Assembly: GCA_041662745.1 (NCBI GenBank)
Contig: JBAZRV010000003.1
Span: forward strand, 56,034 to 120,033
Reading direction: 5' to 3'
Length of the DNA: 64,000 nt
From: Patescibacteria group bacterium
GTDB taxonomy: Bacteria; Patescibacteriota; Patescibacteriia; 2-01-FULL-39-33
Under the pieces are notes generated by a model. It did not search any database and was not told the DNA's origin. It saw only the letters and a program-made list of their open reading frames with translations. Below, one piece after another: positions 6,548 through 45,709 of this stretch. Made by a program: the position numbers and the translations under genes. Each line of letters begins with the position of its first letter. Positions within the stretch are counted from its first letter, which is position 1.

Positions 6548-8920
6548 ATGAATTTAAATATCTCTTACAACTGGCTAAAGTCGTATGTCAAAACCAGTTT
6601 GACACCGCAAGAATTTGCTAAACGGATCTCGCTTTCCGGACCATCGGTTGACCGCATTAATGCCATCAAACCGAATTTCAGCAAGGTAGTCGTCGGGCAA
6701 ATCAAAAAAATAGAACAGCATCCCAATGCCGACAAGCTTCATGTTTGCAAGGTTAATATTGGCAAAGAAGAATTGCAAATAGTTTGTGGCGCGCCAAATA
6801 TTAAAGAAGGTCAAAAAGTGCCGGTAGTTTTGGTTGGCGGTCAAGTCGGTGAGTTTGAAATCAAAGAAGCCAAATTAAGAGGCGTAGAAAGCTTTGGTAT
6901 GATGTGCTCTCAAAAAGAATTAGGGTTAGGCGAGGATCACACCGGAATTTATATTTTGCCGGCAGATGCCAAAGTTGGCGAGCCGTTAGAGAAAATCATG
7001 CCCATGGATGATGCGATTTTGGATATTGAAATCACTTCCAACCGCCCGGATGCCATGAGCGTTATCGGCATCGCCAGAGAAGCGTCAGCAATTTTGGACG
7101 CTAAGTTTTTATATCAAGCCCCTAAGCCTAATTTGGCTGTCAAAGGCGGTAAAAAGGATTTAAAGATTAAGGTGGCTGAAGAAAAATTTTGCCCTCGGTA
7201 TTCCGCTATTGTTATGGGGGAAGTCAAAGTTGAGGCCTCGCCCTTATGGATGCAACAGCGGCTGCTCGCTTCCGGCTTGCGTCCGATCAATAATCTGGTG
7301 GATATCACTAATTATATTTTATTGGAATACGGCCAGCCGATGCATGTGTTTGATTATGATAAATTATCAGGCGCGGAGATTAATGTCCGCAAAGCCAAAA
7401 AAGGCGAGAAGATTTTGGCGCTGGACGGCAAGGAATATGAATTGTTAACTGATCAATTGGTGATTGCGGATGCTAAGGTCCCGGTCGCTGTCGCCGGTGT
7501 CATGGGCGGAGAATTGTCGGCCGCCACAACAGAAACCAAAACCATTGTGTTTGAATGCGCTAATTTTAATCCGGTTTCAGTCAGGAAGACTTCCAGAGCC
7601 CTGAATTTGCGTTCTGAGAGCTCGGCGCTTTATGAGAAGGGAATCAGTCCGGAAAATGTTATCGCCTCAATGTTGCGCGCCATAGAGCTGGCGCAGGAAT
7701 TGTGCGGCGCCAAAATCGCCGGTAGATTAATTGATGAGAAGTCATATAAAATTAAAGATAAGGAAATTGTTTTGGATTTGGATAGTGTTAATTCCGCTTT
7801 GGGTGTTAAAATCAAACCAGCAGAAATCAAAAAGAATTTAGAAGCTTTAGGTTTTAAAGTTTCTTCCACCAAGTCCAAGCGCGATGAATTTATGGTGGTT
7901 GTGCCGTGGTGGCGGGAAAATGATATTGACGGCCAGCATGATTTAATTGAGGAAATCGCTCGCATGCACGGTTATTATAATCTGCCAACTGAGCTTATGT
8001 CTGGCGCTTTGCCAAAAGCCGCCAGCAGCATTAATTTTGGTTTAGAAGATAAAATCAAGGATGTTTTGGTTGGTTTTGGTTTAACCGAAGTTTATACTTA
8101 CTCTTTCATCTCTGAAAAACAAATAACCGCCTGCGGTTTAAAGCCGGAGGATCATATTAAAATCGCCAATCCCTTAAGTGTTGATTTTGAGTACATGCGG
8201 ATTTCACTCTTGCCGGGAGTTTTGCAAATTATTGCTGAAAACGAAGGTTTTTATCCGGCTGGAAAATTGTTTGATTTCAGCCAGGTTTATTTGCCGTTAG
8301 GCGCAAACGATTTAGCCGATGAAAAATTTAAATTATTAATCGCTTGCTATGGCGCTGAAATCAATAAAGTCGCCGGTGATGTCAGGGGATTATTGGATGG
8401 TTTAATGCAACGGCTTTATATTTCCGGTTTGGTTTTTAAAAATACTGCTGATGGCTCAGAGATTTATGTTGGTGATAATAAATTGGGCGAGATCAAAGTC
8501 ATTAATAATAAAATTTTATCCGCTTTCGGCATTAAGAAAGCAGTAACAATCGTAGAATTGGATTTTGAAGCTGTTAGTAAATCAGCCAAGTCCGCGCCGA
8601 CTTACCAGCCGATTCCTAAATTTCCGGCGATTGAACTAGACTTGTCAATGGAAATTGATAATGTCGTGACTTTTGCCGAGGTGGCTAATATCGCGACTGA
8701 CGCCGGCCTGCCTGCCGGTCAGGCAGGCGCGCCATTGGTAGAGAGAGTTGATTTTTTATCAGTATACAGAGGTAATGATTTGCCGGAAGGTAAAAAAGCT
8801 TTAGCGATTAGAATCGTTTATCGTGACTTGAACAAGACGCTGGAATTAGCTGAAGCGCAAAAAGCGCATGATAAAGTTGTAGCGGAATTAAAAAAGAGTT
8901 ATAATATAAGTGTAAGATAA
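6548..8920 (+). CDS. pheT: phenylalanine--tRNA ligase beta subunit
   Basis: 790 aa; N-terminal tRNA-binding (EMAP-like) domain, B3/4, B5, core and anticodon-binding domains; follows pheS. Confidence 0.93.
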   Translation: MNLNISYNWLKSYVKTSLTPQEFAKRISLSGPSVDRINAIKPNFSKVVVGQIKKIEQHPNADKLHVCKVNIGKEELQIVCGAPNIKEGQKVPVVLVGGQVGEFEIKEAKLRGVESFGMMCSQKELGLGEDHTGIYILPADAKVGEPLEKIMPMDDAILDIEITSNRPDAMSVIGIAREASAILDAKFLYQAPKPNLAVKGGKKDLKIKVAEEKFCPRYSAIVMGEVKVEASPLWMQQRLLASGLRPINNLVDITNYILLEYGQPMHVFDYDKLSGAEINVRKAKKGEKILALDGKEYELLTDQLVIADAKVPVAVAGVMGGELSAATTETKTIVFECANFNPVSVRKTSRALNLRSESSALYEKGISPENVIASMLRAIELAQELCGAKIAGRLIDEKSYKIKDKEIVLDLDSVNSALGVKIKPAEIKKNLEALGFKVSSTKSKRDEFMVVVPWWRENDIDGQHDLIEEIARMHGYYNLPTELMSGALPKAASSINFGLEDKIKDVLVGFGLTEVYTYSFISEKQITACGLKPEDHIKIANPLSVDFEYMRISLLPGVLQIIAENEGFYPAGKLFDFSQVYLPLGANDLADEKFKLLIACYGAEINKVAGDVRGLLDGLMQRLYISGLVFKNTADGSEIYVGDNKLGEIKVINNKILSAFGIKKAVTIVELDFEAVSKSAKSAPTYQPIPKFPAIELDLSMEIDNVVTFAEVANIATDAGLPAGQAGAPLVERVDFLSVYRGNDLPEGKKALAIRIVYRDLNKTLELAEAQKAHDKVVAELKKSYNISVR

Positions 8921-9613: not shown

Positions 9614-10156
9614 ATGAAGATTATCAGATGGTATTCCGGCAATACCAGATTTGTCTTAGTGATTGGTTTTTTGGCTTTTAAGTTTGCCAAAATCAATCTG
9701 TTTATGGCTTTAAAATGCGAATTCAGGCAATTATTTACGAACAGTCATAATGTGAGACGCTTAGTGAAGAAATATGGTTATGTATGCCCGGTATCGCCAC
9801 TTTATTGGCTGCTCCGCGGAATCACAGCCAATTGGCTGGAATGGCGTTATTATCGGCGCACGCGCTTACCGATTCTTGCTCCAACCTATTTGTCGCTTGG
9901 CTTAGTAAATATCCAGGCGGCCGGCGTTTATCCGCAAGTAACCGAAAAATATTTTAGAAGCCAAATCAGCGCCATCATCGGCCATGATGAGAATAATGAT
10001 GAAGATATCCATGCCGATCCACACACTCTTCGTCAAATGGAAAACTACATCGTCTTTAACGGCAGACTGAAGATCATTGATTATGGATCACCAAAATCCT
10101 GGACGTTTTTGGAGAAATGGGGAAAAAAGATATTTGATGAATTTATCGCTCTGTAA
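9614..10156 (+). CDS. hypothetical protein (180 aa)
   Basis: ORF with GGAG RBS; followed by hairpin agccacg...cgtggct + TTTTAT (about 10166-10195). Confidence 0.5.
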   Translation: MKIIRWYSGNTRFVLVIGFLAFKFAKINLFMALKCEFRQLFTNSHNVRRLVKKYGYVCPVSPLYWLLRGITANWLEWRYYRRTRLPILAPTYLSLGLVNIQAAGVYPQVTEKYFRSQISAIIGHDENNDEDIHADPHTLRQMENYIVFNGRLKIIDYGSPKSWTFLEKWGKKIFDEFIAL

Positions 10157-22521: not shown

Positions 22522-23940
22522 ATGAAGTTGAAAAAACTCTTTATTTTTGCATTCTGTTTTGTCTTTACCGCTTTAATCGCCGTTAACGCTCGGGCGGCGG
22601 ATTTTACCGCCGATTATTTGATTTCCGACGTTGAAATGAATGACTATAGCGCTATGGATTTAAGCGACATTCAGCGTTTTTTGGAAAAACGCGACGGCAC
22701 TTTGGAGACTTATATTACCTTTGACAAGGAAGGCAATCCTAAGACGGCGGTTCAGACATTTTTTGAAACTTCTCGTAATTGGCAGATCAATCCTAAATAT
22801 CTGTTGGTTTTGGTGCAAAAAGAACAAAGCCTATTGGATGACCCCAATCCCTCGCAGAAACAATATGACTGGGCGACCGGTTACGGGGTTTGCGATAGTT
22901 GCTCTATGGACGATCCTAATATTCAGCGTTTCAGGGGGTTCTATCGCCAAGTCAATTCCGCTGCCGCTCAGACGCGATATTACATGGACAACATTAAGGA
23001 ATTTTCTTTTCAGCCGGGCAAAACCTATAACATTGACGGCCAGACCGTTACGATGAAAAACACAGCCACTGCCGGCTTGTTCAACTATACCCCGCATATC
23101 CATGGAAATCAGCTGTTCTGGAATTTATGGAATAAATATTTTGGCAAATCTTGGCCGGACGGCAGTTTGTTGCAAGTTGAAGATGGCGGTCAGATATACT
23201 ACATTGAAAACGGAGTTAAGCGTTTAATCGCCTCTAAGGCCGTGTTCGCTTCGCGTTTCAATAATAATAGCATCCTGACGGTTAGTCAAAGCGATTTAGA
23301 TACTTATGATGATGGCGCGCCGATTAAATATTTGAATTTTTCCATTTTGCAGAGCACGACTACCGGCGAGATGTATATGATCATTAATGATGTTAAACGT
23401 CGCATTGTCAGTGACGCTGTTTTTAAGAAATTAGGCTTTAGCGATGATGATTTGGCAAAGGTTATTGATTCTGAGTTACAATTATATAAGGCTGGCCCGG
23501 ATATTACCGAATATACTGTTTATCCGACCGGTATTTTGTTGCAGGACAGTAAAGCCAAAATCGCCGACGCCGGCATATATTATGTCATCAGCGGTGAAAA
23601 AAAACCCGTATTAACCAAAGAAATAATGGCGGCTAATTTCCCCGGCATGACCGTCAAGAAAGTTCCTAGCGTAGAATTGGACAAGTATATGCCCGGCTCT
23701 AATGTAACTTTGCCCGACGGTTTATTGGTCAAGATAAATCCTAAAGCTCTAAAAGTCAAAACCAAGGAAGCGCTCGCCGCCGCCAGTACGGTCTATGTTA
23801 TTTCTCATGGCAAGCGTTTGCCTATCATTTCTGGCGCAGTATTCAAACAAATGGGGTATAGCAGCAAGAACATCAAGATCATTTCCGAAGCCACTCTTAA
23901 TGCCCATGATTTAGGCCCCTTCATTACCGGGCAACAGTAA
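22522..23940 (+). CDS. hypothetical secreted protein (472 aa, signal peptide)
   Basis: MKLKKLFIFAFCFVFTALIAVNARA signal peptide. Confidence 0.55.
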   Translation: MKLKKLFIFAFCFVFTALIAVNARAADFTADYLISDVEMNDYSAMDLSDIQRFLEKRDGTLETYITFDKEGNPKTAVQTFFETSRNWQINPKYLLVLVQKEQSLLDDPNPSQKQYDWATGYGVCDSCSMDDPNIQRFRGFYRQVNSAAAQTRYYMDNIKEFSFQPGKTYNIDGQTVTMKNTATAGLFNYTPHIHGNQLFWNLWNKYFGKSWPDGSLLQVEDGGQIYYIENGVKRLIASKAVFASRFNNNSILTVSQSDLDTYDDGAPIKYLNFSILQSTTTGEMYMIINDVKRRIVSDAVFKKLGFSDDDLAKVIDSELQLYKAGPDITEYTVYPTGILLQDSKAKIADAGIYYVISGEKKPVLTKEIMAANFPGMTVKKVPSVELDKYMPGSNVTLPDGLLVKINPKALKVKTKEALAAASTVYVISHGKRLPIISGAVFKQMGYSSKNIKIISEATLNAHDLGPFITGQQ

Positions 23941-26618: not shown

Positions 26619-27950
26619 TTAATTTTTGGCAATAATCGTCTCAGTGTTGATTTTAGTTAATTTGCGCCTCTTTTTTGTTATCAGATAAATACATAGCAGA
26701 GCAATCAGATCCATAAACAGCTCCTCCCGCTGGAAGTAGTTAGTATAAATAGACATGATACAGACAAAGGAAAAATAAGCGAATAACATGCTAGTCAGAG
26801 GGTTGGGCCGTCGCTGGGCAAAAGCGTAGATTGTTCCCAGCAGCGCTCCCCAACCGATGCCGGCCAGCGCAATCCCCCACCAGCCGAAGTCTAGGAAATA
26901 TACAAATAAGAAGGTGGCGGTGATCCACCAGGGCAGAAATATCGCCGACCAATCAACTGGAGCGTGGAATTGCGGCAGATGGAAAATTTTTAAAGCCGAA
27001 TTAAAAACCGCTAATTCGGCTTGGCCGAGATAATGTTGTTCCGTGTGCAATTCCACTCCTCTGTCCAGTGCTTGCAGATTGAACGCCGGTATCAGATAAA
27101 TCGGCGTTAAAAATTGCAGGTAGGGCGGCAAATTAACTTGAGAAATGGTTGTTAAATAAGAAAATGGGTTATACTCGCCTTGGTAATTGTAATCGCGATA
27201 AGTGATAAATTGCCGAAAGGCCGGTATGGCGATGGAGACGCTTAAAATGGCTGTCAGGGCTAAAAGGGTGCTAACTATCAATCTTTTTAATTTAATGGTT
27301 TGCGAGTTTATTATAAGATAACCAAAGTAGCATAATAACACGGTAATTACGATAATCAGGCGTGAAGCGTATAAAGACAGAATGATAAAACCAATAACTA
27401 TTACCAGCCAATAAAAAAATTTTTTTGCCCGGGTTAAATTTTGTTTGTCTAGAACCAATTCCAAAAAGGCCAGCGGAATGAATAAGCGCGGTAAAAGCGA
27501 TAGCCATTCAAAAATACCGAAAATCTCCTTATTGATAATAAAGCGCATTTTATCGGGAATGGAGGACAGAATGGGCAGGGTGCCGAATCGGCTGAAGATA
27601 TAAAGATTAGCCGCAATACTGGCTAAGGCCATTAGGCCGATTAAAATAGCCATCAGACGGTTGTTTATTTTGGGCCTTTTTTCTGTAACTGCCAGCTTTT
27701 TAGCGGTTAAACGTTTAACAAGATAATACGTTATGATAAAGGGCGGGAAGAATAACCCCAATATCAGCCACAAACGCCAGCTTAAAGGCCGTTCCAGCGG
27801 GCTTAGGCGCAATTGGCTGACAGCCAGAGCAGCCGACCACAGCGAGGCGAGAAGCAGGGCCGGAGAAAATTTTTCTTGGCCCAAAAAATAAAACCAGCCG
27901 AGGGCGGCTGCGGCTAGGAAAAAAATAAAAAATAAAAACCAAGTCAGCAT
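26619..27950 (-). CDS. polytopic membrane protein, O-antigen polymerase/ligase (Wzy)-like
   Basis: ~11 TM helices with one large loop; adjacent to GT2. Confidence 0.4.
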   Translation of the reverse strand: MLTWFLFFIFFLAAAALGWFYFLGQEKFSPALLLASLWSAALAVSQLRLSPLERPLSWRLWLILGLFFPPFIITYYLVKRLTAKKLAVTEKRPKINNRLMAILIGLMALASIAANLYIFSRFGTLPILSSIPDKMRFIINKEIFGIFEWLSLLPRLFIPLAFLELVLDKQNLTRAKKFFYWLVIVIGFIILSLYASRLIIVITVLLCYFGYLIINSQTIKLKRLIVSTLLALTAILSVSIAIPAFRQFITYRDYNYQGEYNPFSYLTTISQVNLPPYLQFLTPIYLIPAFNLQALDRGVELHTEQHYLGQAELAVFNSALKIFHLPQFHAPVDWSAIFLPWWITATFLFVYFLDFGWWGIALAGIGWGALLGTIYAFAQRRPNPLTSMLFAYFSFVCIMSIYTNYFQREELFMDLIALLCIYLITKKRRKLTKINTETIIAKN

Positions 27951-37060: not shown

Positions 37061-37762
37061 TTAGGCCGTTTCTTTTTTTTGTTTTACCTTGCCGAAATTA
37101 ATAGCTTCGGCGATAACGCGGGTGATTAAATCAACCGAGTTGATGGCGTCGTCATTGGCCGGAATCGGATAAGTGAATAAATCAGGATTGATATTGGTAT
37201 CGCACGGTCCGATAATCGGAATTTTTCTTTTTTTGGCTTCCAAAACCGCGGTTTTTTCGCGTTTGGCATCAAGGATGAAAACGGCATCAGGCAAACGGCT
37301 CAGGTTTTCCAATCCGCCGACCATCTTGTCTAAGCGTTCAATTTCTTTGCTGATCATCACCTGTTCTTTCTTGGTGTATTTTGCCAGGGCGCCGGAATCG
37401 CGTTGTTCCTTCAGCGAACGGTATTTTTTTATCAGTTTGCCGACATTGACAAAATTAGTGAATAATCCGCCAACCCAGCGTTCCTTAATATAGGGCATGC
37501 CGGCTTGCTTGGCATATTTTTCAATTAACGGCTTGGCTTGGCTTTTGGTGCCGACAAAAAGAATGTTACCGCCGTTTTCGCCGATTTTTTCGGCAAACTC
37601 GGCCGCCTCTTTCAGTTTGGCTAATGTTTGTTCCAGATCAATAATGTGGACCCCGTTGCGTTCGGCAAAAATGAACGGTTTCATTTTGGGGTGCCAGCGG
37701 CCTTTTTGATGGCCGAAGTGGACTCCTGCCTGGAGGAGCTCCATTAATGTTGGTAAATTCAT
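37061..37762 (-). CDS. rpsB: 30S ribosomal protein S2
   Basis: MELLQAGVHFGHQKGRWHPKM. Confidence 0.93.
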   Translation of the reverse strand: MNLPTLMELLQAGVHFGHQKGRWHPKMKPFIFAERNGVHIIDLEQTLAKLKEAAEFAEKIGENGGNILFVGTKSQAKPLIEKYAKQAGMPYIKERWVGGLFTNFVNVGKLIKKYRSLKEQRDSGALAKYTKKEQVMISKEIERLDKMVGGLENLSRLPDAVFILDAKREKTAVLEAKKRKIPIIGPCDTNINPDLFTYPIPANDDAINSVDLITRVIAEAINFGKVKQKKETA

Positions 37763-37985
37763 AATTTTCCTTTCTTTCTTGGCAGTCCCTAATCCGCGGA
37801 TTAACCGCAGATTGGCCCGATTTTAGTTAATTAAAGCTACGGGCAAGGATTAATTCAGGGCTGCTGTTTATTAATAAAATGTATTAAAAGATTATCATAA
37901 ATCAACGGATAAGTCAAATCCCTAATTAAAATATAAAAGCCACTCCTGGGGAGAAGTGGCGATAAATGAGCGATTTTGGCCTTGG

Positions 37986-39359
37986 TCAGCTGTTGGGCCA
38001 GTACTTGCCGACTGGCCATTCGGCGATAGAAACATTGTCAATCATGACGCCGGCTTCGCTTAAACGCAATTGCGTGTTTGCGGAGATGACGTCAATAATG
38101 TGTTTCTTATGTTGCGCCAGTTCTTCCGACATGCCGGCCAGGATGCTGCCAGCGCTTGCTATTCCCGGATTGGCGAAAATAGAACAGGTTGTTTCCGTCG
38201 GCAAGCATTCGGTTAGCGCCACTATCGTCTCTCTTCTGACAACATCAGTGAGATATTCCTCAAGCCCTTCCTGTTGATGAAAGGTTTGAAGGTTTTTCAG
38301 ATAGCTTTCATTGCTGAGCAGAGTGTAGCCAACAGCCAATCTCAACTCATTCCCGTCAAGTGACGCTTCAACCGCTAAACCGTCTTTGGCGGCGGCGATG
38401 CCCCGAGTGTACTTTTTGGCGAATAAATTTACAAAGCGATGATCATAGGCCAGCAGCGTATCCTTATCATCAATGGCAAAACGTTTGTAAAATTCTCCGT
38501 CGGATCGGTTAATAAGGATAATTGAACTGTTTTTGCTTAATAAATATGACGGAGTTTTAAAAGTAAACAAAGTTGACACGACAAGGGCTGTGATAAAGAA
38601 TGCCATGATTACTGGTTTATCGTGTTTGTAAGTTGAGGTATCATGCACTATCGTAGCCGCTATTATCGCCGGTACCATAACGCAGGTAAATATGAACATT
38701 ACCGCAATAACCGCGTTCGGCAAGAAAATTACCGACAAGTAATACAGATAGACTGTCATGGCGACGGCGGCAATGATTATGCTGCAAGGTATCATAAATA
38801 CCGTAACGATATCTGTCAGATCATCGCCGTGTTCGCAGAACCAATTTTTTGTCCCCTTGGCTATTCGGACAAAACCGCAGAACAACCAGCCCAGGATTAG
38901 ACTGACCGGACTGATGATCTTCTTTAATGTTTGTATCTTTTTGTTGGGCGGTTTTAGCAGGATCCTGGCCTGCGACAAACTGACGATCCTGTTGGATATC
39001 AGTGAGATGATCAGTTTTTTATATTGCGAGTTTAAGGTCGGCAGGAATTCCGGTTGCCAGTCCATTCCCGTGGCTAAGCGGAATAATGTGAGACCCAGCT
39101 GATGGAAGGCTTCGCGTACGTCCTTGACCGGAGTTGTCGAGCCGTAATCGACTTTATTATTATCATCAATAAAAATATTTCCCGCTTCATACTTCACCAA
39201 TTCCCCTTTTTCTTTCAGACGCGCTTCCAGATCCTCCAGCAGTTCCGAGGCGATGGCATATAACAGACCATCTCCTAATTTGATTTCGTAGCGTTTTTTC
39301 ATGGTCACGTTCTCCTTTATGGTTGCGGTAACTGTTGTTTTGGTTAATTTTAAGGCCAA
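37986..39359 (-). CDS. membrane protein with N-terminal degenerate Ser/Thr-kinase C-lobe-like domain (457 aa); paralog of next gene
   Basis: N-terminal ...LVKYEAGNIFIDDNNKVDYGST...HQLGLTLFRLATG... resembles kinase subdomains VIb-IX (HRDLKPENILI..VKLADFG / DxWSLGxxLYExxTG) without N-lobe; then ~6 TM; shared architecture with 39480..41027. Confidence 0.5.
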   Translation of the reverse strand: MALKLTKTTVTATIKENVTMKKRYEIKLGDGLLYAIASELLEDLEARLKEKGELVKYEAGNIFIDDNNKVDYGSTTPVKDVREAFHQLGLTLFRLATGMDWQPEFLPTLNSQYKKLIISLISNRIVSLSQARILLKPPNKKIQTLKKIISPVSLILGWLFCGFVRIAKGTKNWFCEHGDDLTDIVTVFMIPCSIIIAAVAMTVYLYYLSVIFLPNAVIAVMFIFTCVMVPAIIAATIVHDTSTYKHDKPVIMAFFITALVVSTLFTFKTPSYLLSKNSSIILINRSDGEFYKRFAIDDKDTLLAYDHRFVNLFAKKYTRGIAAAKDGLAVEASLDGNELRLAVGYTLLSNESYLKNLQTFHQQEGLEEYLTDVVRRETIVALTECLPTETTCSIFANPGIASAGSILAGMSEELAQHKKHIIDVISANTQLRLSEAGVMIDNVSIAEWPVGKYWPNS

Positions 39360-39479
39360 AATTGTAAGGTGCTTGTTATCTGCATAACAATATGGCAGAT
39401 TAGCATTATGTTATGAAAATGTCAAATAATCAATAAATGAAAAGCCACCTCCTCATGGGAAGTGGCAAAAATGAACTAG

Positions 39480-41027
39480 TTATTCAGTTTCCTGTTCGGC
39501 CGTTACTTTGGCCGGCGGATTGGCCGGCTGGGATGGCGTTTGCTTTTCAGCCGTTTCTCCCGGCTTTTTCGGCTCTTTGACTTCAATGTAGTTATACTGA
39601 TTCTTGAATTGTTGGCGCAATTGGCCTTGAATATTGTCCATGATTTGCCGGCGTTGTTTATCAATGACGGCCTGCTGACGCGACAACAGTTCGTTTCTGA
39701 CTAGGCGGACGGTAAGCTCGCGCAGGACCTGATAATCATTTTTTGACAGCGTGCCGTCCGCGCCCTTAGCTTCAACGGTTATTTCTTTAAGCTCCTGCTC
39801 AATTGCCAGGCGGGACTTAATGGGGACAACGCTTTCAGCTAGAGCTTTTTGAACCGCGACTTGACCGGCGTTAATCAGCTCTTGTTCTAGATCGGCTTGC
39901 GTTTGCTTATTCTCCGTCATCCGTTTCCAGTCGCTTTCAAATGTCGCCTGGTCGGTGATGGCATACTTGATCCAGAAGCAGAACTTTTCTCCGTTTTTAT
40001 CCTTATCCAGCGGCGCTTCCACCGGGATGCCTTCATGCTGAATGAGTATGCCCGGCGCATAGCTTTTGGTGAATAAATTGACATACGCAGCTTCGTAATG
40101 CGGGATGTAATGTTTATCTTCGCCGTCGGCGATTCGGCCGATCAGGTTTCCGCTGGAGCGATCAATTACTACTAAGGGAGGACAAAAGCCAGTCGTTGGA
40201 GTCTCAAAGATTTCATAAATTGAAAGCGAGGCAATCAGGATTAAAAAGGCAATCCAGCCCCTGAAGATGCAATCATCCTCCCGCAGATCGGTGAGCATGG
40301 CTGATATCACAGTTATTATGACCCCTAAAAAGAAGGAGAAAAATACAATTAGAAAACCGCAAATTACAGCCATAGCGATACTAAAATAAATAGCATTAAC
40401 AGAAGCCAGGCAAATGAACGAAGCGCCGGCGATGATAATCAGCATTACGTGGGCGATAAGCGAAAATTTACGTTTTATAAACCTCAGCAGTTTCAACAGT
40501 TTGGCCGCTGTTTTTTTTGTTTGCGGATAAATATTGCCAGCTTGAGCTCCCAGCCGTTTAAAAGCTGAGACCGCTCCCTGGCCGATCAGCGTAATCAGCC
40601 AGCAGAGCGGGTTTAACAGCAATTTGGTTTTACGTGCCAGCTTTTTGATTCGGCTGGGTCGGATCAGGAGTTCTTCCACTTGCTTGAAGTTGACCGCTTG
40701 GCCGGATAGCAATAATTCCACTAACGGCCAGAGGTCAGAGTCAAACGGTTCATAGCCGGCATCGGCGGCGCGCAGGGCTGAATCGTTTATTTCCGATTTG
40801 CCCGTGGCCACATGATACAAGGTAACGCCTAAATAATAGAGCGCTTCGCGAATATTTTTGATCTGCGAAGTCGGCAGGGTGTCGCAGACAACCTTTCGGC
40901 TGTCATTGATGAATACCGTATCCGGGTCAAAACGCAATACGACGTCGTTGTTTGCCGCTTCGCGCAACCTGTTAGTCAGGGTTTGGGCGATAAGAAAAAG
41001 ATCTTCTTCCCGTTGCCAGGTTCTCAT
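39480..41027 (-). CDS. membrane protein with N-terminal degenerate Ser/Thr-kinase C-lobe-like domain (515 aa); paralog
   Basis: ...VVLRFDPDTVFINDSRKVVCDT...ALYYLGVTLYHVATGKSE...PLVELLLSG... aligns to kinase catalytic-loop/subdomain IX-XI; TM block; C-terminal coiled coil and Q/P-rich tail. Confidence 0.5.
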   Translation of the reverse strand: MRTWQREEDLFLIAQTLTNRLREAANNDVVLRFDPDTVFINDSRKVVCDTLPTSQIKNIREALYYLGVTLYHVATGKSEINDSALRAADAGYEPFDSDLWPLVELLLSGQAVNFKQVEELLIRPSRIKKLARKTKLLLNPLCWLITLIGQGAVSAFKRLGAQAGNIYPQTKKTAAKLLKLLRFIKRKFSLIAHVMLIIIAGASFICLASVNAIYFSIAMAVICGFLIVFFSFFLGVIITVISAMLTDLREDDCIFRGWIAFLILIASLSIYEIFETPTTGFCPPLVVIDRSSGNLIGRIADGEDKHYIPHYEAAYVNLFTKSYAPGILIQHEGIPVEAPLDKDKNGEKFCFWIKYAITDQATFESDWKRMTENKQTQADLEQELINAGQVAVQKALAESVVPIKSRLAIEQELKEITVEAKGADGTLSKNDYQVLRELTVRLVRNELLSRQQAVIDKQRRQIMDNIQGQLRQQFKNQYNYIEVKEPKKPGETAEKQTPSQPANPPAKVTAEQETE

Positions 41028-41215
41028 GGTTTCTCCTTTGGCTTTTTGGCCGGTTGGCTGTCTGTAAACTTAATGTTTTTTAAATTTTAATGTGCTTGTC
41101 CGGTTATTCCAGAATATGAAATCTTAGCATATTTTAGATAAAATGTCAATATGTTGACATTTTGGCTAAAATCGGATATAATTAGGCATATTATCAATTA
41201 ACGTATTAAGCGTTT

Positions 41216-42717: not shown

Positions 42718-43317
42718 TTAATAGCGGTCGCCGGGACCGTCAGGCAGCTTTTTATGCGGTCGGAGCTGGACGGCGTCTTCCAGCTTGAAGCGTTTACGGG
42801 TGGCTTGGTAGTAAGCCAGCAAGAGCAGGGCCTGTTTGGTTTCTAATTGCCTGCCCCAACGCAATTTACAGAGCCCGATAAGGTATTCGGCGTGGCCGTC
42901 CTGAAACGCCGGTGACTCGTGGATGGCGCGAATCGGTTGCCAGTTTTCATTAGTCAAGATTAGAACCATGTTTTTGTAAGGCGAAACGCGGAAAAGACGA
43001 ATAAGATAATTGATTTTGCCGGTATAGTGCATAAGCGAGAATAACCACATCCAGTATAGACTGGATTCGTTATCCTGAATGGGCTCGCCGCTCAGGCGAC
43101 AGGTCATGGCCACAGATGGCGGCAACTTGAATTCTTTAATGAGAACTGAACGCGGAATTTTGGCATAATCCATGCTGGTAAAGCATAGAGCCGCTCTGAC
43201 AGCCTTGTCCGGCAGTTGGCCGGTTGCCTTGGCTTCCCAAAATTCAACTATGGCCCTCAGATAAGCATCAATGATTTGCCTGTATTCTTCCAGAGCGTCG
43301 CTACAGCCGCAGGACAT
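42718..43317 (-). CDS. hypothetical protein (199 aa)
   Basis: ORF between prfA and prmC on opposite strand. Confidence 0.45.
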   Translation of the reverse strand: MSCGCSDALEEYRQIIDAYLRAIVEFWEAKATGQLPDKAVRAALCFTSMDYAKIPRSVLIKEFKLPPSVAMTCRLSGEPIQDNESSLYWMWLFSLMHYTGKINYLIRLFRVSPYKNMVLILTNENWQPIRAIHESPAFQDGHAEYLIGLCKLRWGRQLETKQALLLLAYYQATRKRFKLEDAVQLRPHKKLPDGPGDRY

Positions 43318-45166: not shown

Positions 45167-45709
45167 TTAATCGGCGGGAGCGGAAAGTTCGGCGTTGGCA
45201 TCTGTAGCCGGGAAGGCTCCATATCTAACTAAAGCTGTCCCCGGGCTTTCAGGGAAACCTCCATAAAGAGTCATCATGTTTGAATCGTCCGGAGAGTCCG
45301 GAAAAGAGGGTAATCCATCATTTCTATTGCGGTTTAGTTGATCAATTAGCGCTCGTTCCGCCGTTTTAAAGACCACCTCTTGTTTTTCGGGATCATAATC
45401 GGCGAACAAGCGATTAAAAGCAAAAATAATTTGCAGATCTTCATTAAGCAGGACGCCGTAGTCGCAAACAGTTTCTTCAGTACCAAAAATTCTATTGGCT
45501 AAATTAACCATCCCGGTTTCTTCGGAGTAAACGGCCATAAACTCCTCGGCTGGCTTGGTCTGGCCCCGCATAATGATCAAATAATAATTCTGCGCCGCTT
45601 CATCCGGGGAAGCCTGTTCTTGGGGGTTTGACAATTTTACTTTGACTTGATGCCTTTGCAAATCACGACGTAAAAAAGAAAGAACATTGCCATGCATCGG
45701 ATTGCTCAT
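45167..45709 (-). CDS. hypothetical protein (180 aa), downstream partner of SPASM radical SAM gene
   Basis: ORF; 37-nt gap to radical SAM gene, same strand. Confidence 0.5.
   Translation of the reverse strand: MSNPMHGNVLSFLRRDLQRHQVKVKLSNPQEQASPDEAAQNYYLIIMRGQTKPAEEFMAVYSEETGMVNLANRIFGTEETVCDYGVLLNEDLQIIFAFNRLFADYDPEKQEVVFKTAERALIDQLNRNRNDGLPSFPDSPDDSNMMTLYGGFPESPGTALVRYGAFPATDANAELSAPAD

What the first reader, a model, noticed from the sequence alone, without database searches (positions are those of the whole stretch)
37986..41027. Tandem paralogous membrane proteins whose N-terminal cytoplasmic domain is a truncated, degenerate Ser/Thr-kinase C-lobe
Both proteins (457 and 515 aa; same strand, 120-nt spacer) start with ~110 aa that align to eukaryotic-like kinase subdomains VIb-XI. 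Examples are VVLRFDPDTVFINDSRKVVCDT / LVKYEAGNIFIDDNNKVDYGST (catalytic loop to DFG region, DFG lost), and ALYYLGVTLYHVATG / HQLGLTLFRLATG (the DxWSLGCVLYELLTG subdomain IX). There is no Gly-rich loop or VAIK lysine N-lobe. Then come a ~6-TM block and a conserved extracytoplasmic segment (...DRSSGNLIGRIADGEDKHYIPHYEAAYVNLFTKSYAPGI... versus ...NRSDGEFYKRFAIDDKDTLLAYDHRFVNLFAKKYTRGI...). The longer copy adds a coiled coil and Q/P-rich tail. Lobe-only pseudokinase scaffolds fused to polytopic membrane domains, duplicated in tandem, look like an uncharacterised signalling/scaffolding pair located right next to rpsB-tsf.
Basis: partly seen in the sequence, partly recalled or inferred. Interest (0 to 1): 0.6.

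Follow-up and report, generated by a model that had tools for sequence, protein, structure and literature searches.

The report
Membrane proteins with kinase C-lobe-only domain
Two neighbouring genes of a Patescibacteria (CPR) bacterium encode membrane proteins that begin with only the back half (C-lobe) of a protein-kinase fold, lack its catalytic parts, and belong to an undescribed family that in most relatives sits beside a Cdc48-like AAA ATPase.

Summary
The two minus-strand genes are real tandem paralogs: A, 39480-41027, 515 aa; B, 37986-39302, 438 aa (not 457).

The kinase reading of the first ~125 aa holds:
- A profile-profile comparison with kinase C-lobes gives 94.7% probability; shuffled controls reach at most 1.2%.

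There is no N-lobe, no conserved catalytic Asp or DFG, and the activation segment is deleted. This is a non-catalytic, C-lobe-only module, analogous to eukaryotic KIND but not a sequence member of it.

- The family shows three conserved TM helices plus a variable juxtamembrane helix, not ~6.
- Each gene has its own ribosome-binding site, promoter-like site and terminator.
- Gene A is a recombinant of two paralog types.

New context: the N-domain defines a rare Patescibacteria family (68 clusters among 1.84 billion proteins) with many architectures. Outside this clade it is always adjacent to a conserved ~170-aa + ~65-aa + AAA ATPase cluster, which this window lacks.

Most likely function: a membrane-anchored protein-docking scaffold. 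This is inferred, not shown.

The parts
39480..41027 (-). Gene A, 515 aa (identical to NCBI MAG protein WC668_02950, 'hypothetical protein', Patescibacteria group bacterium)
   Evidence: ORF list. 100% match P0001. AAGGAG ribosome-binding site 5-6 nt before the ATG.
40653..41027 (-). A: N-terminal kinase-C-lobe-like domain (aa 1-125). Predicted elements: alphaE 2-26; beta remnants of the catalytic-loop/DFG region 29-55; alphaF 59-75; a loop in place of alphaG 76-99; alphaH 100-107; alphaI 114-120.
40464..40652 (-). A: K/R-rich juxtamembrane linker (aa 126-188), including a moderately hydrophobic helix at ~137-156
   Evidence: 18 K/R in the 80 residues before TM1. Linker-helix hydrophobicity 1.5 here and 0.25-2.5 across the family.
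40203..40463 (-). A: three core transmembrane helices (approx. aa 189-210, 217-245, 254-274)
   Evidence: Hydropathy. AlphaFold helices 168-214, 217-245, 250-275.
39564..40190 (-). A: conserved C-terminal alpha/beta + helical domain (aa 280-488). It carries the motif VVIDRSSGNLIGRIA...YVNLFTKSYAPGI and long helices 429-473.
   Evidence: Family profile A4, HMM E=2.9e-39. No PDB or Pfam relative. Secondary structure.
39483..39563 (-). A: P/E/K/Q-rich, probably disordered tail (aa 489-515)
   Evidence: pLDDT about 30.
41121..41149 (-). Promoter-like site for A (TTGACA-17-TAAGAT with TG), in the 188-nt divergent intergenic region shared with rpmE
   Evidence: Consensus scan, sequence. A consensus match only.
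39444..39466 (-). Terminator-like hairpin + T-run directly after gene A
   Evidence: About 60 nt are similar to the region after gene B, and this hairpin motif occurs only twice in the window.
39361..39390 (-). Promoter-like site for B (TTGTTA-18-TACAAT). It ends just 3' of the TTG at 39359, which therefore probably lies outside the transcript.
37986..39302 (-). Gene B, 438 aa from ATG 39302 (identical to NCBI WC668_02945). The 457-aa TTG-initiated ORF is the maximal ORF, not the likely gene.
   Evidence: AAGGAG 8-9 nt upstream of the ATG. Orthologues start MGKKRYEV / MRKKSFEV.
38937..39302 (-). B: N-terminal kinase-C-lobe-like domain (aa 1-122). It keeps an Asn at the catalytic-loop Asn position (GNIFIDD) and a DYG in place of DFG.
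   Evidence: Alignments A1/A2, HMM E=1.1e-24, hhalign.
38559..38918 (-). B: hydrophobic block (aa 129-248). A juxtamembrane helix at 129-148 (uncharged, could span the membrane) plus three core TM helices at about 165-194, 198-219 and 231-248.
37989..38540 (-). B: C-terminal conserved domain (aa 255-438), a shorter version lacking about 45 aa of the helical insert and the tail of A
   Evidence: Alignment A1, HMM E=5e-31.
37939..37960 (-). Terminator-like hairpin + T-run after gene B, separating it from rpsB (37061-37762)

Best explanation
Genes A and B encode two paralogous polytopic membrane proteins.

Architecture:
- The cytoplasmic N-terminal ~125 residues are a stand-alone, non-catalytic copy of the C-lobe (alphaE to alphaI) of a Hanks-type protein kinase. 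There is no ATP-binding N-lobe, no conserved catalytic Asp/Asn or DFG, and the activation segment is deleted by about 24 residues. Phosphotransfer is not expected.
- Next come a K/R-rich amphipathic juxtamembrane linker and three conserved TM helices.
- Last is a ~170-230-aa alpha/beta + helical domain of unknown fold, most likely on the outer face of the membrane.

Mechanism (inferred): the C-lobe-only domain works as a protein-docking surface held at the membrane. This is how the eukaryotic KIND module binds a partner peptide, and how membrane pseudokinases such as EssB/YukC scaffold a complex. The two paralogs probably act together as a hetero-oligomer.

Family context (shown): the domain is the shared N-terminal module of a rare Patescibacteria-specific family. 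Its members carry a membrane C-terminal part or one of several soluble ones. Outside this clade they are always encoded next to a ~170-aa protein, a ~65-aa protein and a Cdc48/VAT-like AAA ATPase. In those lineages the likely docking partner is that ATPase machine. In this clade the pair sits between rpmE and rpsB without it, so the partner here is unknown.

Shown: paralogy, the kinase-C-lobe fold prediction and profile similarity, absence of the catalytic apparatus, the family and its gene neighbourhoods.
Inferred: topology, docking function, hetero-oligomerisation, partner identity.
For: Paralogy.

Kinase C-lobe:
- PDB profile hit to MKK4, E=2.2e-4, collinear.
- hhalign 94.7%, E=6.4e-8 over 80 columns from the catalytic loop to alphaH, with a 24-residue gap at the activation segment. 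Controls reach at most 1.2%.
- N-domain AlphaFold model: pLDDT 81.7, pTM 0.78.
- Foldseek: the top 50 hits are all kinases, probability 0.98-1.00. The full-length model also retrieves Rv3910 pseudokinase, GCN2 and BRAF.

Non-catalytic:
- The protein starts at alphaE and there is no upstream coding room.
- The family consensus Y..F.P..I.I has no conserved catalytic Asp/Asn or DFG.
- There is no Pkinase Pfam hit in any member.

Modularity:
- Gene A is a mosaic. Its N-domain is 71-87% identical to paralog type 1, while the rest is 54-88% identical to type 2. The switch lies at the domain boundary.
- The domain occurs alone (143-183 aa), before unrelated soluble domains, and after other domains.

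AAA link:
- Forward look-ups and the genome scan all show adjacency to the ~170-aa + ~65-aa + AAA cluster.
- In the reverse census starting from the 65-aa protein, 7 of 7 loci with enough flanking DNA show it.
- P0056 and P0067 fuse the AAA protein's N-terminal repeat domain (E=7.6e-27) to the C-lobe domain.
- The AAA is Cdc48/VAT-like.

Topology: the TM1-2 loop has 0-1 K/R, the TM2-3 loop has 0-7 (usually 1-4), and the pre-TM linker has 10-18.
Against: - The fold evidence is a prediction from a 7-sequence alignment. No experimental structure exists.
- The broad 52-sequence family profile shows only the alphaF motif in common with kinases: hhalign 46.6% over 24 columns, PDB E=0.37.
- No binding partner is identified for this clade. 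The 64-kb window has no homologue of the AAA, the ~170-aa or the ~65-aa protein. None of the 13 closest AAA homologues lies on the contigs that carry this clade's genes.
- In B the juxtamembrane helix is fully hydrophobic. A 4-TM topology with a cytoplasmic C-domain therefore cannot be excluded.
- The fold and role of the C-terminal domain remain unknown.
Confidence: 0.6

Rival explanations
1. The N-terminal C-lobe-like domain is a recognition handle, not an adaptor. It marks these proteins as clients or cargo of the AAA unfoldase, which would insert, extract, secrete or turn them over. The variable C-terminal parts would be the functional payloads.
For: - The conserved N-domain is followed by highly variable C-terminal regions.
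- One Paceibacterota contig carries 10 consecutive paralogs downstream of the AAA gene.
- The domain always sits at the extreme N-terminus in 60+ members.
- The AAA is of the Cdc48/VAT unfoldase type.
Against: - The window clade keeps the proteins without any detectable AAA cluster nearby.
- There are no small immunity-like ORFs between array members.
- Folded ~125-aa domains are unusual as unfoldase degrons.
- P0056 and P0067 replace the ATPase module with the C-lobe domain behind the same N-terminal repeats. That looks more like a cofactor or regulator than a client.
Confidence: 0.2
2. The proteins are atypical active kinases. The C-lobe would be complemented in trans by a separately encoded N-lobe, or would use a non-canonical ATP site.
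For: - B-type copies retain an Asn at the catalytic-loop position and a DYG triplet.
- Tandem paralogs could in principle dimerise.
Against: - In the hhalign alignment of gene A, the catalytic Asp aligns to a gap and the catalytic Lys to Asp.
- None of these residues is conserved across the family.
- The activation segment and P+1 loop are deleted.
- No ORF in the window matches a canonical kinase C-lobe profile.
- The ~170-aa and ~65-aa partner proteins show no kinase hit.
- No precedent for a split Hanks kinase is known to me.
Confidence: 0.03
3. The kinase resemblance is spurious. A small helical domain shares one amphipathic helix motif (LGVTLYHLATG versus SLGVILYELLTG) with kinases, and AlphaFold, biased by its training on abundant kinases, built a C-lobe around it.
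For: - The broad-family profile aligns to kinases only over the 24 alphaF columns, at 46.6%.
- That profile gets no significant PDB hit.
- There is no Pfam hit.
- The prediction alignment is shallow, at 7 sequences.
Against: - The clade profile aligns collinearly over 80 columns, including the catalytic-loop remnant, the DFG position, alphaF and alphaH. Probability is 94.7%, against at most 1.2% in 32 controls.
- An independent hmmsearch hit to MKK4 has two collinear segments.
- All five models have pLDDT 78.7-81.7.
- 122 of 128 residues superpose on CSK at 2.7 A.
Confidence: 0.12

Closest known systems
[quoted passage not shown]
   Same: - A stand-alone kinase C-lobe with no N-lobe and no catalytic function.
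- It is used as a protein-interaction module.
- In Spir KIND the alphaG helix is missing and the formin peptide sits in its place (PMC3415841, read). The model here likewise predicts no helix between alphaF and alphaH.
- From memory, KIND also tends to lie at the N-terminus of its proteins.
   Different: - No sequence membership: no Pfam KIND hit at E<=10.
- KIND-containing proteins described in the papers found here are eukaryotic. This family is bacterial and, where named, from Patescibacteria.
- Here the domain is fused to TM helices or to other bacterial domains, and is genetically linked to an AAA ATPase. An independent truncation of a kinase is likely.
Bacterial membrane pseudokinases: EssB/YukC of the type VIIb secretion system and the Rv3910 (MviN/MurJ) kinase-homology domain
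   Same: - A cytoplasmic, catalytically dead kinase-fold domain tethered to the membrane, with an extracytoplasmic part, acting as a scaffold.
- Rv3910 is the top Foldseek hit of the full-length model (probability 0.94-0.96), and YukC also appears.
- T7SSb also combines a membrane pseudokinase, a small ubiquitin-like protein and an ATPase (abstract of bioRxiv 10.1101/2025.01.24.634720).
   Different: - Those are complete bilobal pseudokinase folds. Here only the C-lobe exists.
- No T7SS genes (FtsK-type EssC, WXG100) were seen in the neighbourhoods.
- The associated ATPase is a classical AAA (PF00004, Cdc48-like), not FtsK/SpoIIIE.
- The YukC match has probability 0.16.
Hanks-type (eukaryotic-like) Ser/Thr kinases such as PknB, YabT and PknS
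   Same: - Recognisable remnants of subdomains VIb, VII, IX and XI.
   Different: There is no N-lobe, no catalytic Asp, no conserved DFG and no activation segment. Pfam Pkinase is not matched.
UBX-type cofactors of Cdc48/p97 (functional analogy only, from general knowledge)
   Same: One conserved docking domain is combined with many different partner domains, some of them membrane-anchored. This pattern matches the family's many architectures and its obligate neighbourhood with a Cdc48-like AAA.
   Different: The fold is unrelated (beta-grasp versus kinase C-lobe). Binding to the AAA is untested. The window clade lacks the AAA nearby.

Membership tests
Hanks-type protein kinase (Pfam Pkinase PF00069) | Bilobal fold with an ATP-binding N-lobe (Gly-rich loop, VAIK Lys, alphaC Glu) | tested here: not met
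   The protein begins at the alphaE-equivalent helix (residue 2). Only 188 nt (A) or 177 nt (B) of non-coding DNA lie upstream.
Hanks-type protein kinase (Pfam Pkinase PF00069) | Catalytic loop HRDxKxxN and DFG motif conserved | tested here: not met
   In the hhalign alignment of gene A, the catalytic Asp falls in a gap, Lys aligns to Asp and Asn to Thr. B keeps the Asn and a DYG. None of these is conserved in the family consensus.
Hanks-type protein kinase (Pfam Pkinase PF00069) | Score above the Pfam gathering threshold | tested here: not met
   No Pkinase hit at E<=10 for the full proteins or for 7 N-domains, nor in 10 distant members.
Hanks-type protein kinase (Pfam Pkinase PF00069) | C-lobe architecture alphaE - catalytic/DFG beta strands - alphaF - alphaH - alphaI | tested here: met
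   [not shown]
Pseudokinase (classical sense: complete kinase fold lacking catalytic residues) | Complete bilobal kinase fold | tested here: not met
   Only the C-lobe is present.
KIND domain (Pfam/SMART KIND) | Stand-alone non-catalytic kinase C-lobe | tested here: met
KIND domain (Pfam/SMART KIND) | Sequence match to the KIND family model | tested here: not met
   No KIND hit in Pfam scans at E<=10.
KIND domain (Pfam/SMART KIND) | alphaG position free for a partner peptide (Spir-formin mode) | tested here: inconclusive
   The model has no helix at residues 76-99, but pLDDT there is about 50. No complex could be modelled.
EssB/YukC type VIIb membrane pseudokinase | Bilobal pseudokinase + single TM + extracellular domain, encoded with EssC (FtsK-type ATPase) and WXG100 genes | tested here: not met
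   C-lobe only, with 3-4 TM helices. The neighbours are rpmE, rpsB and tsf here, and AAA (PF00004) clusters elsewhere. Foldseek probability to YukC is 0.16.
SPFH/Band-7 (considered for the C-terminal domain) | Profile similarity to stomatin, prohibitin or QmcA SPFH domains | tested here: not met
   hhalign probability 0.2%. No Band_7 Pfam hit in 30 members. The only signal is a rank-36 Foldseek hit at probability 0.16.
Known anti-phage defence systems (PADLOC) | Match to any PADLOC protein model | tested here: not met
   No hit for A, B, or the ~170-aa and ~65-aa proteins. The AAA gives only weak generic ATPase hits.

The most novel reading that the evidence does not exclude
The C-lobe-only domain may be the docking module of a previously undescribed Patescibacteria-specific machine built around a Cdc48-like AAA ATPase. 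The gene set would be a ~170-aa protein, a ~65-aa protein, the AAA, and one to ten C-lobe-domain proteins.

The C-lobe proteins, membrane-anchored or soluble, would act as interchangeable adaptors (or clients) that direct the unfoldase to different targets, much as UBX cofactors do for p97.

On this reading, the window's pair would be membrane adaptors that have become genetically uncoupled from the ATPase. Kinase C-lobes would then have been converted into stand-alone interaction modules in bacteria, independently of eukaryotic KIND.
Probability: 0.35. Interest if true: 0.8.

Novelty: new variant of a known kind. Interest (0 to 1): 0.62.

Why it matters
Stand-alone kinase C-lobes are known as the eukaryotic KIND module. 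The argument that the C-lobe is an independent functional unit rests largely on that one case. A bacterial family built on the same truncation, with dozens of architectures, would be a second and probably independent example. It would also be a new kind of bacterial kinase-fold derivative, because the bacterial pseudokinases compared here (Rv3910, EssB/YukC) are bilobal.

The family gives an identity to a set of 'hypothetical' membrane proteins in Patescibacteria, organisms with tiny genomes and mostly unknown surface and host-interaction biology.

Its near-obligate linkage to a Cdc48-like AAA ATPase and two small proteins outlines a conserved four-component gene module that no database searched here annotates. 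The adaptor-versus-client question is directly testable.

Tried and rejected
- **Database scans of A and B.** Pfam, NCBIfam, PADLOC and direct PDB sequence searches returned nothing useful.
- **Broad N-domain profile against PDB.** The 52-sequence profile gave no significant hit. Only the narrow clade profile detects kinases.
- **SPFH/stomatin or FliL-like C-terminal domain.** The idea came from a rank-36 Foldseek hit and one weak FliL Pfam hit. It was rejected by hhalign at 0.2% and by the absence of PDB or Pfam hits for a 30-sequence profile.
- **The 790-aa window ORF at 6548-8920 as the AAA partner.** It is PheT.
- **AAA, ~170-aa or ~65-aa homologues in the window.** None found by tblastn or blastp.
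- **AAA search for a copy on this clade's contigs.** 13 hits, none on the contigs of 140,050, 957,791 or 212,810 bp. This is weak evidence of absence only.
- **Mapping A and B to the X1/X2 orthologue groups of distant genomes.** No 1:1 correspondence.
- **Canonical kinase in the window.** None among 285 ORFs with a C-lobe HMM. An N-lobe-only gene was not specifically searched for.
- **~170-aa and ~65-aa proteins.** Neither has a PDB or Pfam relative. The ~170-aa protein gives only repeated sub-threshold XPC-binding hits.
- **Literature.** Searches found no description of this family.


Full report
**What is in the window**

Two ORFs lie head-to-tail on the minus strand.
- A is 39480-41027 (515 aa).
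- B is 37986-39359 (457 aa) as a maximal TTG-initiated ORF.

They are genuine paralogs. BLASTP gives E=4e-18 and 24% identity over 345 residues. The alignment runs from the N-terminal domain through the hydrophobic block into the conserved post-membrane segment.

B almost certainly starts at ATG 39302, giving 438 aa. Three observations support this:
- An AAGGAG Shine-Dalgarno sequence lies 8-9 nt upstream of that ATG.
- The deposited protein and its orthologues begin MKKRYEI / MGKKRYEV / MRKKSFEV.
- A promoter-like site (39390-39361) ends just 3' of the TTG.

The spacer between the genes is therefore 177 nt, not 120.

Each gene has its own Shine-Dalgarno sequence, a promoter-like site and a terminator-like hairpin with a T-run (after A at 39466-39444; after B at 37960-37939). 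The two 3' regions are alike over about 60 nt, and that hairpin motif occurs nowhere else in the window. The duplicated unit therefore included the terminator. These look like two monocistronic units, separate from the downstream rpsB-tsf.

Composition is unremarkable: 44-47% GC across the window's 2-kb bins covering this region.

**Organism and close relatives**

Both proteins are identical to 'hypothetical proteins' of a Patescibacteria-group MAG. A word-indexed search of 5.8 billion proteins found seven in all, counting A and B themselves: four of the long type and three of the short type, including Candidatus Buchananbacteria.

Synteny is conserved: prmC, a 199-aa unknown, prfA and rpmE, then the paralogs, then rpsB, tsf, a PSP1-domain gene and gap. 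One relative has three paralogs (500, 490 and 440 aa). Another has two.

Segment-wise identities show that window gene A is a mosaic.
- Alignment columns 1-140 (the N-domain and the start of the linker) are 71-87% identical to the first paralog of the three-gene genome, but only 25-54% identical to the second.
- The remainder is 54-88% identical to the second paralog and 12-22% identical to the first.

Recombination at the domain boundary thus fused two paralogs. This is direct evidence that the N-terminal domain is a separable module.

**Is the N-terminal domain a kinase C-lobe?**

Simple searches fail. There is no Pfam, NCBIfam or direct PDB hit.
1. A 7-sequence profile of the clade's N-domains hits MKK4 in PDB at E=2.2e-4. 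Two collinear segments align: the catalytic-loop region IIHRDiKPSNILLD, and the subdomain IX motif VWSLGITLYELATG. GCN2 and MKK7 follow at E about 0.3.
2. hhalign of that profile against seven kinase C-lobes gives 94.7% probability and E=6.4e-8 over 80 columns. The alignment runs from the catalytic loop through the DFG position and alphaF to alphaH, with a 24-residue gap where the activation segment, P+1 loop and APE motif would be. Reversed profiles and 30 column shuffles reach at most score 17.7 and 1.2% probability.
4. The full-length model retrieves the Rv3910 kinase-homology domain, GCN2 and BRAF.

The predicted elements map as follows: alphaE (2-26), beta remnants of the catalytic-loop and DFG region (29-55), alphaF (59-75), a poorly ordered loop where alphaG would be (76-99), alphaH (100-107) and alphaI (114-120).

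The polypeptide starts at alphaE, and there is no coding room upstream, so there is no N-lobe.

In the hhalign alignment of gene A, the catalytic Asp falls in a gap, the catalytic Lys aligns to Asp, and the catalytic-loop Asn is Thr. B keeps the Asn, and it has DYG at the DFG position. None of these is conserved in the wider family, whose consensus is Y..F.P..I.I ... LR.LGVTLYHLATG.SE.N.ES...DGY..P..S..WP.I..LLSG.A.

The domain is therefore a non-catalytic, C-lobe-only derivative of an ePK-type kinase.

Caveats:
- The fold is a prediction from a shallow alignment.
- The broad 52-sequence profile shares only the alphaF motif with kinases (46.6%, 24 columns; PDB E=0.37).

I put about 0.8 on the C-lobe homology.

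**Membrane part and C-terminal domain**

A crude hydropathy and positive-inside analysis of 32 family members gives the following picture:
- Three strong hydrophobic helices are present throughout (one truncated member shows only two).
- The loop between the first and second helix carries 0-1 K/R.
- The loop between the second and third carries 0-7 K/R, usually 1-4.
- The linker before the first helix is 60-99 residues long, with 10-18 K/R, in members where no extra helix is called.

Inside that linker sits a positionally conserved helix. Its hydrophobicity ranges from 0.25 to 2.5 (median 1.6). It is 1.5 in A and 2.15 in B. This behaviour fits an interfacial or amphipathic helix better than a conserved TM helix.

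The most economical family topology is N-terminus inside, three TM helices, C-terminal domain outside.

The C-terminal domain has the consensus V.VDR.TG.FVARLP...D..L.W...FIN.FKYK...G.P ... Y.I....Y..A...W.....LE. The model predicts two beta hairpins followed by helices. It has no detectable relative:
- A 30-sequence profile finds nothing in PDB or Pfam.
- The SPFH idea raised by weak hits was rejected by hhalign at 0.2%.

A's extra length is a helical insert plus a disordered P/E/K/Q-rich tail.

**The wider family**

An exhaustive HMMER scan of 1.84 billion representative proteins with the full-length profile found only 68 clusters at E<=1e-3, of which 33 are at E<=1e-10.

The N-domain is the common denominator. 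It occurs in four settings:
- at the N-terminus of membrane proteins like A and B;
- alone, in proteins of 143-183 aa;
- at the N-terminus of soluble proteins with several unrelated C-terminal regions;
- occasionally after other domains.

None of ten distant members has a Pkinase hit. Every named protein source, and two of the three named genome-scan MAGs, are Patescibacteria, including Buchananbacteria, Azambacteria and Paceibacterota. The exception is one MAG labelled Gammaproteobacteria, which carries the domain on two ~11-kb contigs. That bin assignment is unverified.

**Gene neighbourhood outside this clade**

Every locus recovered outside the window's clade places the family gene or genes next to the same three genes. 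These are a ~165-200-aa protein, a ~65-71-aa protein and an AAA ATPase of 600-990 aa. The ATPase matches PF00004. Its closest solved relatives are the D2 modules of VAT, Cdc48 and p97 (E=3e-46), and the best NCBIfam subfamily match is CDC48.

The reverse test starts from the 65-aa protein in the metagenome collection. It returned 10 loci. All 7 with enough flanking DNA carry the three genes plus at least one N-domain gene.

Further patterns:
- Tandem pairs recur, and the duplication is old. X1 proteins of two genomes match each other (E=2e-58), X2 proteins match each other (E=2e-90), and X1 versus X2 gives about 1e-40.
- One Paceibacterota contig has ten consecutive paralogs with variable C-termini behind the AAA gene.
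- Proteins P0056 and P0067 join the AAA protein's N-terminal repeat domain (E=7.6e-27) directly to the C-lobe domain. This is a domain-fusion link between the two components.
- Long AAA proteins (783-990 aa, with those repeats) go with membrane-type partners. Short ones (603-637 aa) go with soluble types.

The three-gene cluster has no homologue in the 64-kb window. None of the 13 closest AAA homologues lies on this clade's contigs. A deeper relative (L017) also has the pair next to rpsB without the AAA. In L009 the AAA cluster, the pair and rpsB all lie within 12 kb.

**Interpretation**

The best-supported reading is a membrane-anchored, non-catalytic C-lobe module that docks a cytoplasmic protein. 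The two paralogs probably work together.

In the family at large the partner is most plausibly the Cdc48-like AAA machine. The family's pattern of one conserved domain plus many variable partner domains resembles that of UBX cofactors of p97. This is an analogy, not homology.

Whether the C-lobe proteins are adaptors or clients of the ATPase cannot be decided here. For the window's clade the partner is unknown.

An active or split kinase is very unlikely. A spurious fold assignment is possible but disfavoured by the controls.

**Comparison with known systems**

- **KIND.** The nearest concept is the eukaryotic KIND domain. It is a stand-alone kinase C-lobe that binds partner peptides, and in Spir the formin peptide occupies the missing alphaG position (PMC3415841; KIND literature). 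The present domain works like KIND in architecture but fails its sequence-membership test.
- **Bacterial membrane pseudokinases.** EssB/YukC and Rv3910 share the logic of a dead kinase fold tethered to the membrane. Both are bilobal and sit in different gene contexts.

Literature searches found no description of a bacterial C-lobe-only family or of this AAA-linked gene set.

**Verdict**

The core interpretation, a C-lobe-only degenerate kinase domain, is supported. Its function remains inferred.

This is a new variant of a known kind (kinase-fold-derived non-catalytic modules). It sits in an uncharacterised, lineage-specific family with an unexpected AAA ATPase connection. Interest is about 0.6.

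Noticed in passing
window 39420-39482 and 37915-37988 (minus strand): The 3' regions of genes A and B are alike over about 60 nt, including near-identical terminator hairpins (GCCACTTC...GGAG(G)TGGC + T-run). That motif occurs only at these two places in the window. The duplication, or later gene conversion, therefore covered the terminator.
   Followed up: yes
window 40600-41027 versus L003:8001-9503 and L003:9521-10993: Gene A is a recombinant. Its N-domain comes from paralog type 1 (71-87% identity) and its TM and C-terminal part from paralog type 2 (54-88%). Related genomes carry 3, 2 or 2 copies. This fits unequal recombination at the domain boundary.
   Followed up: yes
L006:3386-6597, L009:2020-5849, L011:4339-7793, L015:4038-6786, L019, L021-L023, L027: A conserved, unannotated three-gene cluster (a ~170-aa protein, a ~65-aa protein with a DFDGF.G.TCSDEE motif, and a Cdc48-like AAA ATPase) always lies next to genes with the C-lobe-like domain. 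The ~170-aa protein gives repeated sub-threshold hits to the Rad23 XPC-binding domain (E 0.003-0.025).
   Followed up: partly
L016:1092-12463: A Candidatus Paceibacterota contig carries ten consecutive paralogous genes downstream of an AAA ATPase gene. Each starts with the C-lobe-like domain and continues into a different C-terminal region.
   Followed up: partly
L015:9848-11293 and flanks: A diversity-generating-retroelement-like pair (bAvd + reverse transcriptase), an integrase and a transposase lie right beside one AAA/C-lobe gene cluster. This hints that some copies sit in variable or mobile regions.
   Followed up: no
window 42718-43317 (minus strand): A 199-aa ORF between prfA and prmC has no Pfam hit. 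A gene of the same length lies at the same position in the related genomes L001 and L003/L004.
   Followed up: partly
window 41154-41182 (plus strand): A perfect sigma-70 consensus (TTGACA-17-TATAAT) lies upstream of rpmE, divergent from the promoter-like site of gene A in the same 188-nt intergenic region.
   Followed up: no
window 22522-23940 (+), 26619-27950 (-), 45167-45709 (-), 9614-10156 (+): Four further ORFs of 180-472 aa have no Pfam match. They are not members of the family studied here (no HMM hit).
   Followed up: partly
L013 and L014 (contigs of MAG CAZJMI01, labelled uncultured Gammaproteobacteria): The only non-Patescibacteria label for this family. The two contigs are ~11 kb each and have 51% GC. 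L013 carries the full AAA cluster and three C-lobe-domain genes; L014 carries one C-lobe-domain gene. The bin assignment may be wrong.
   Followed up: no
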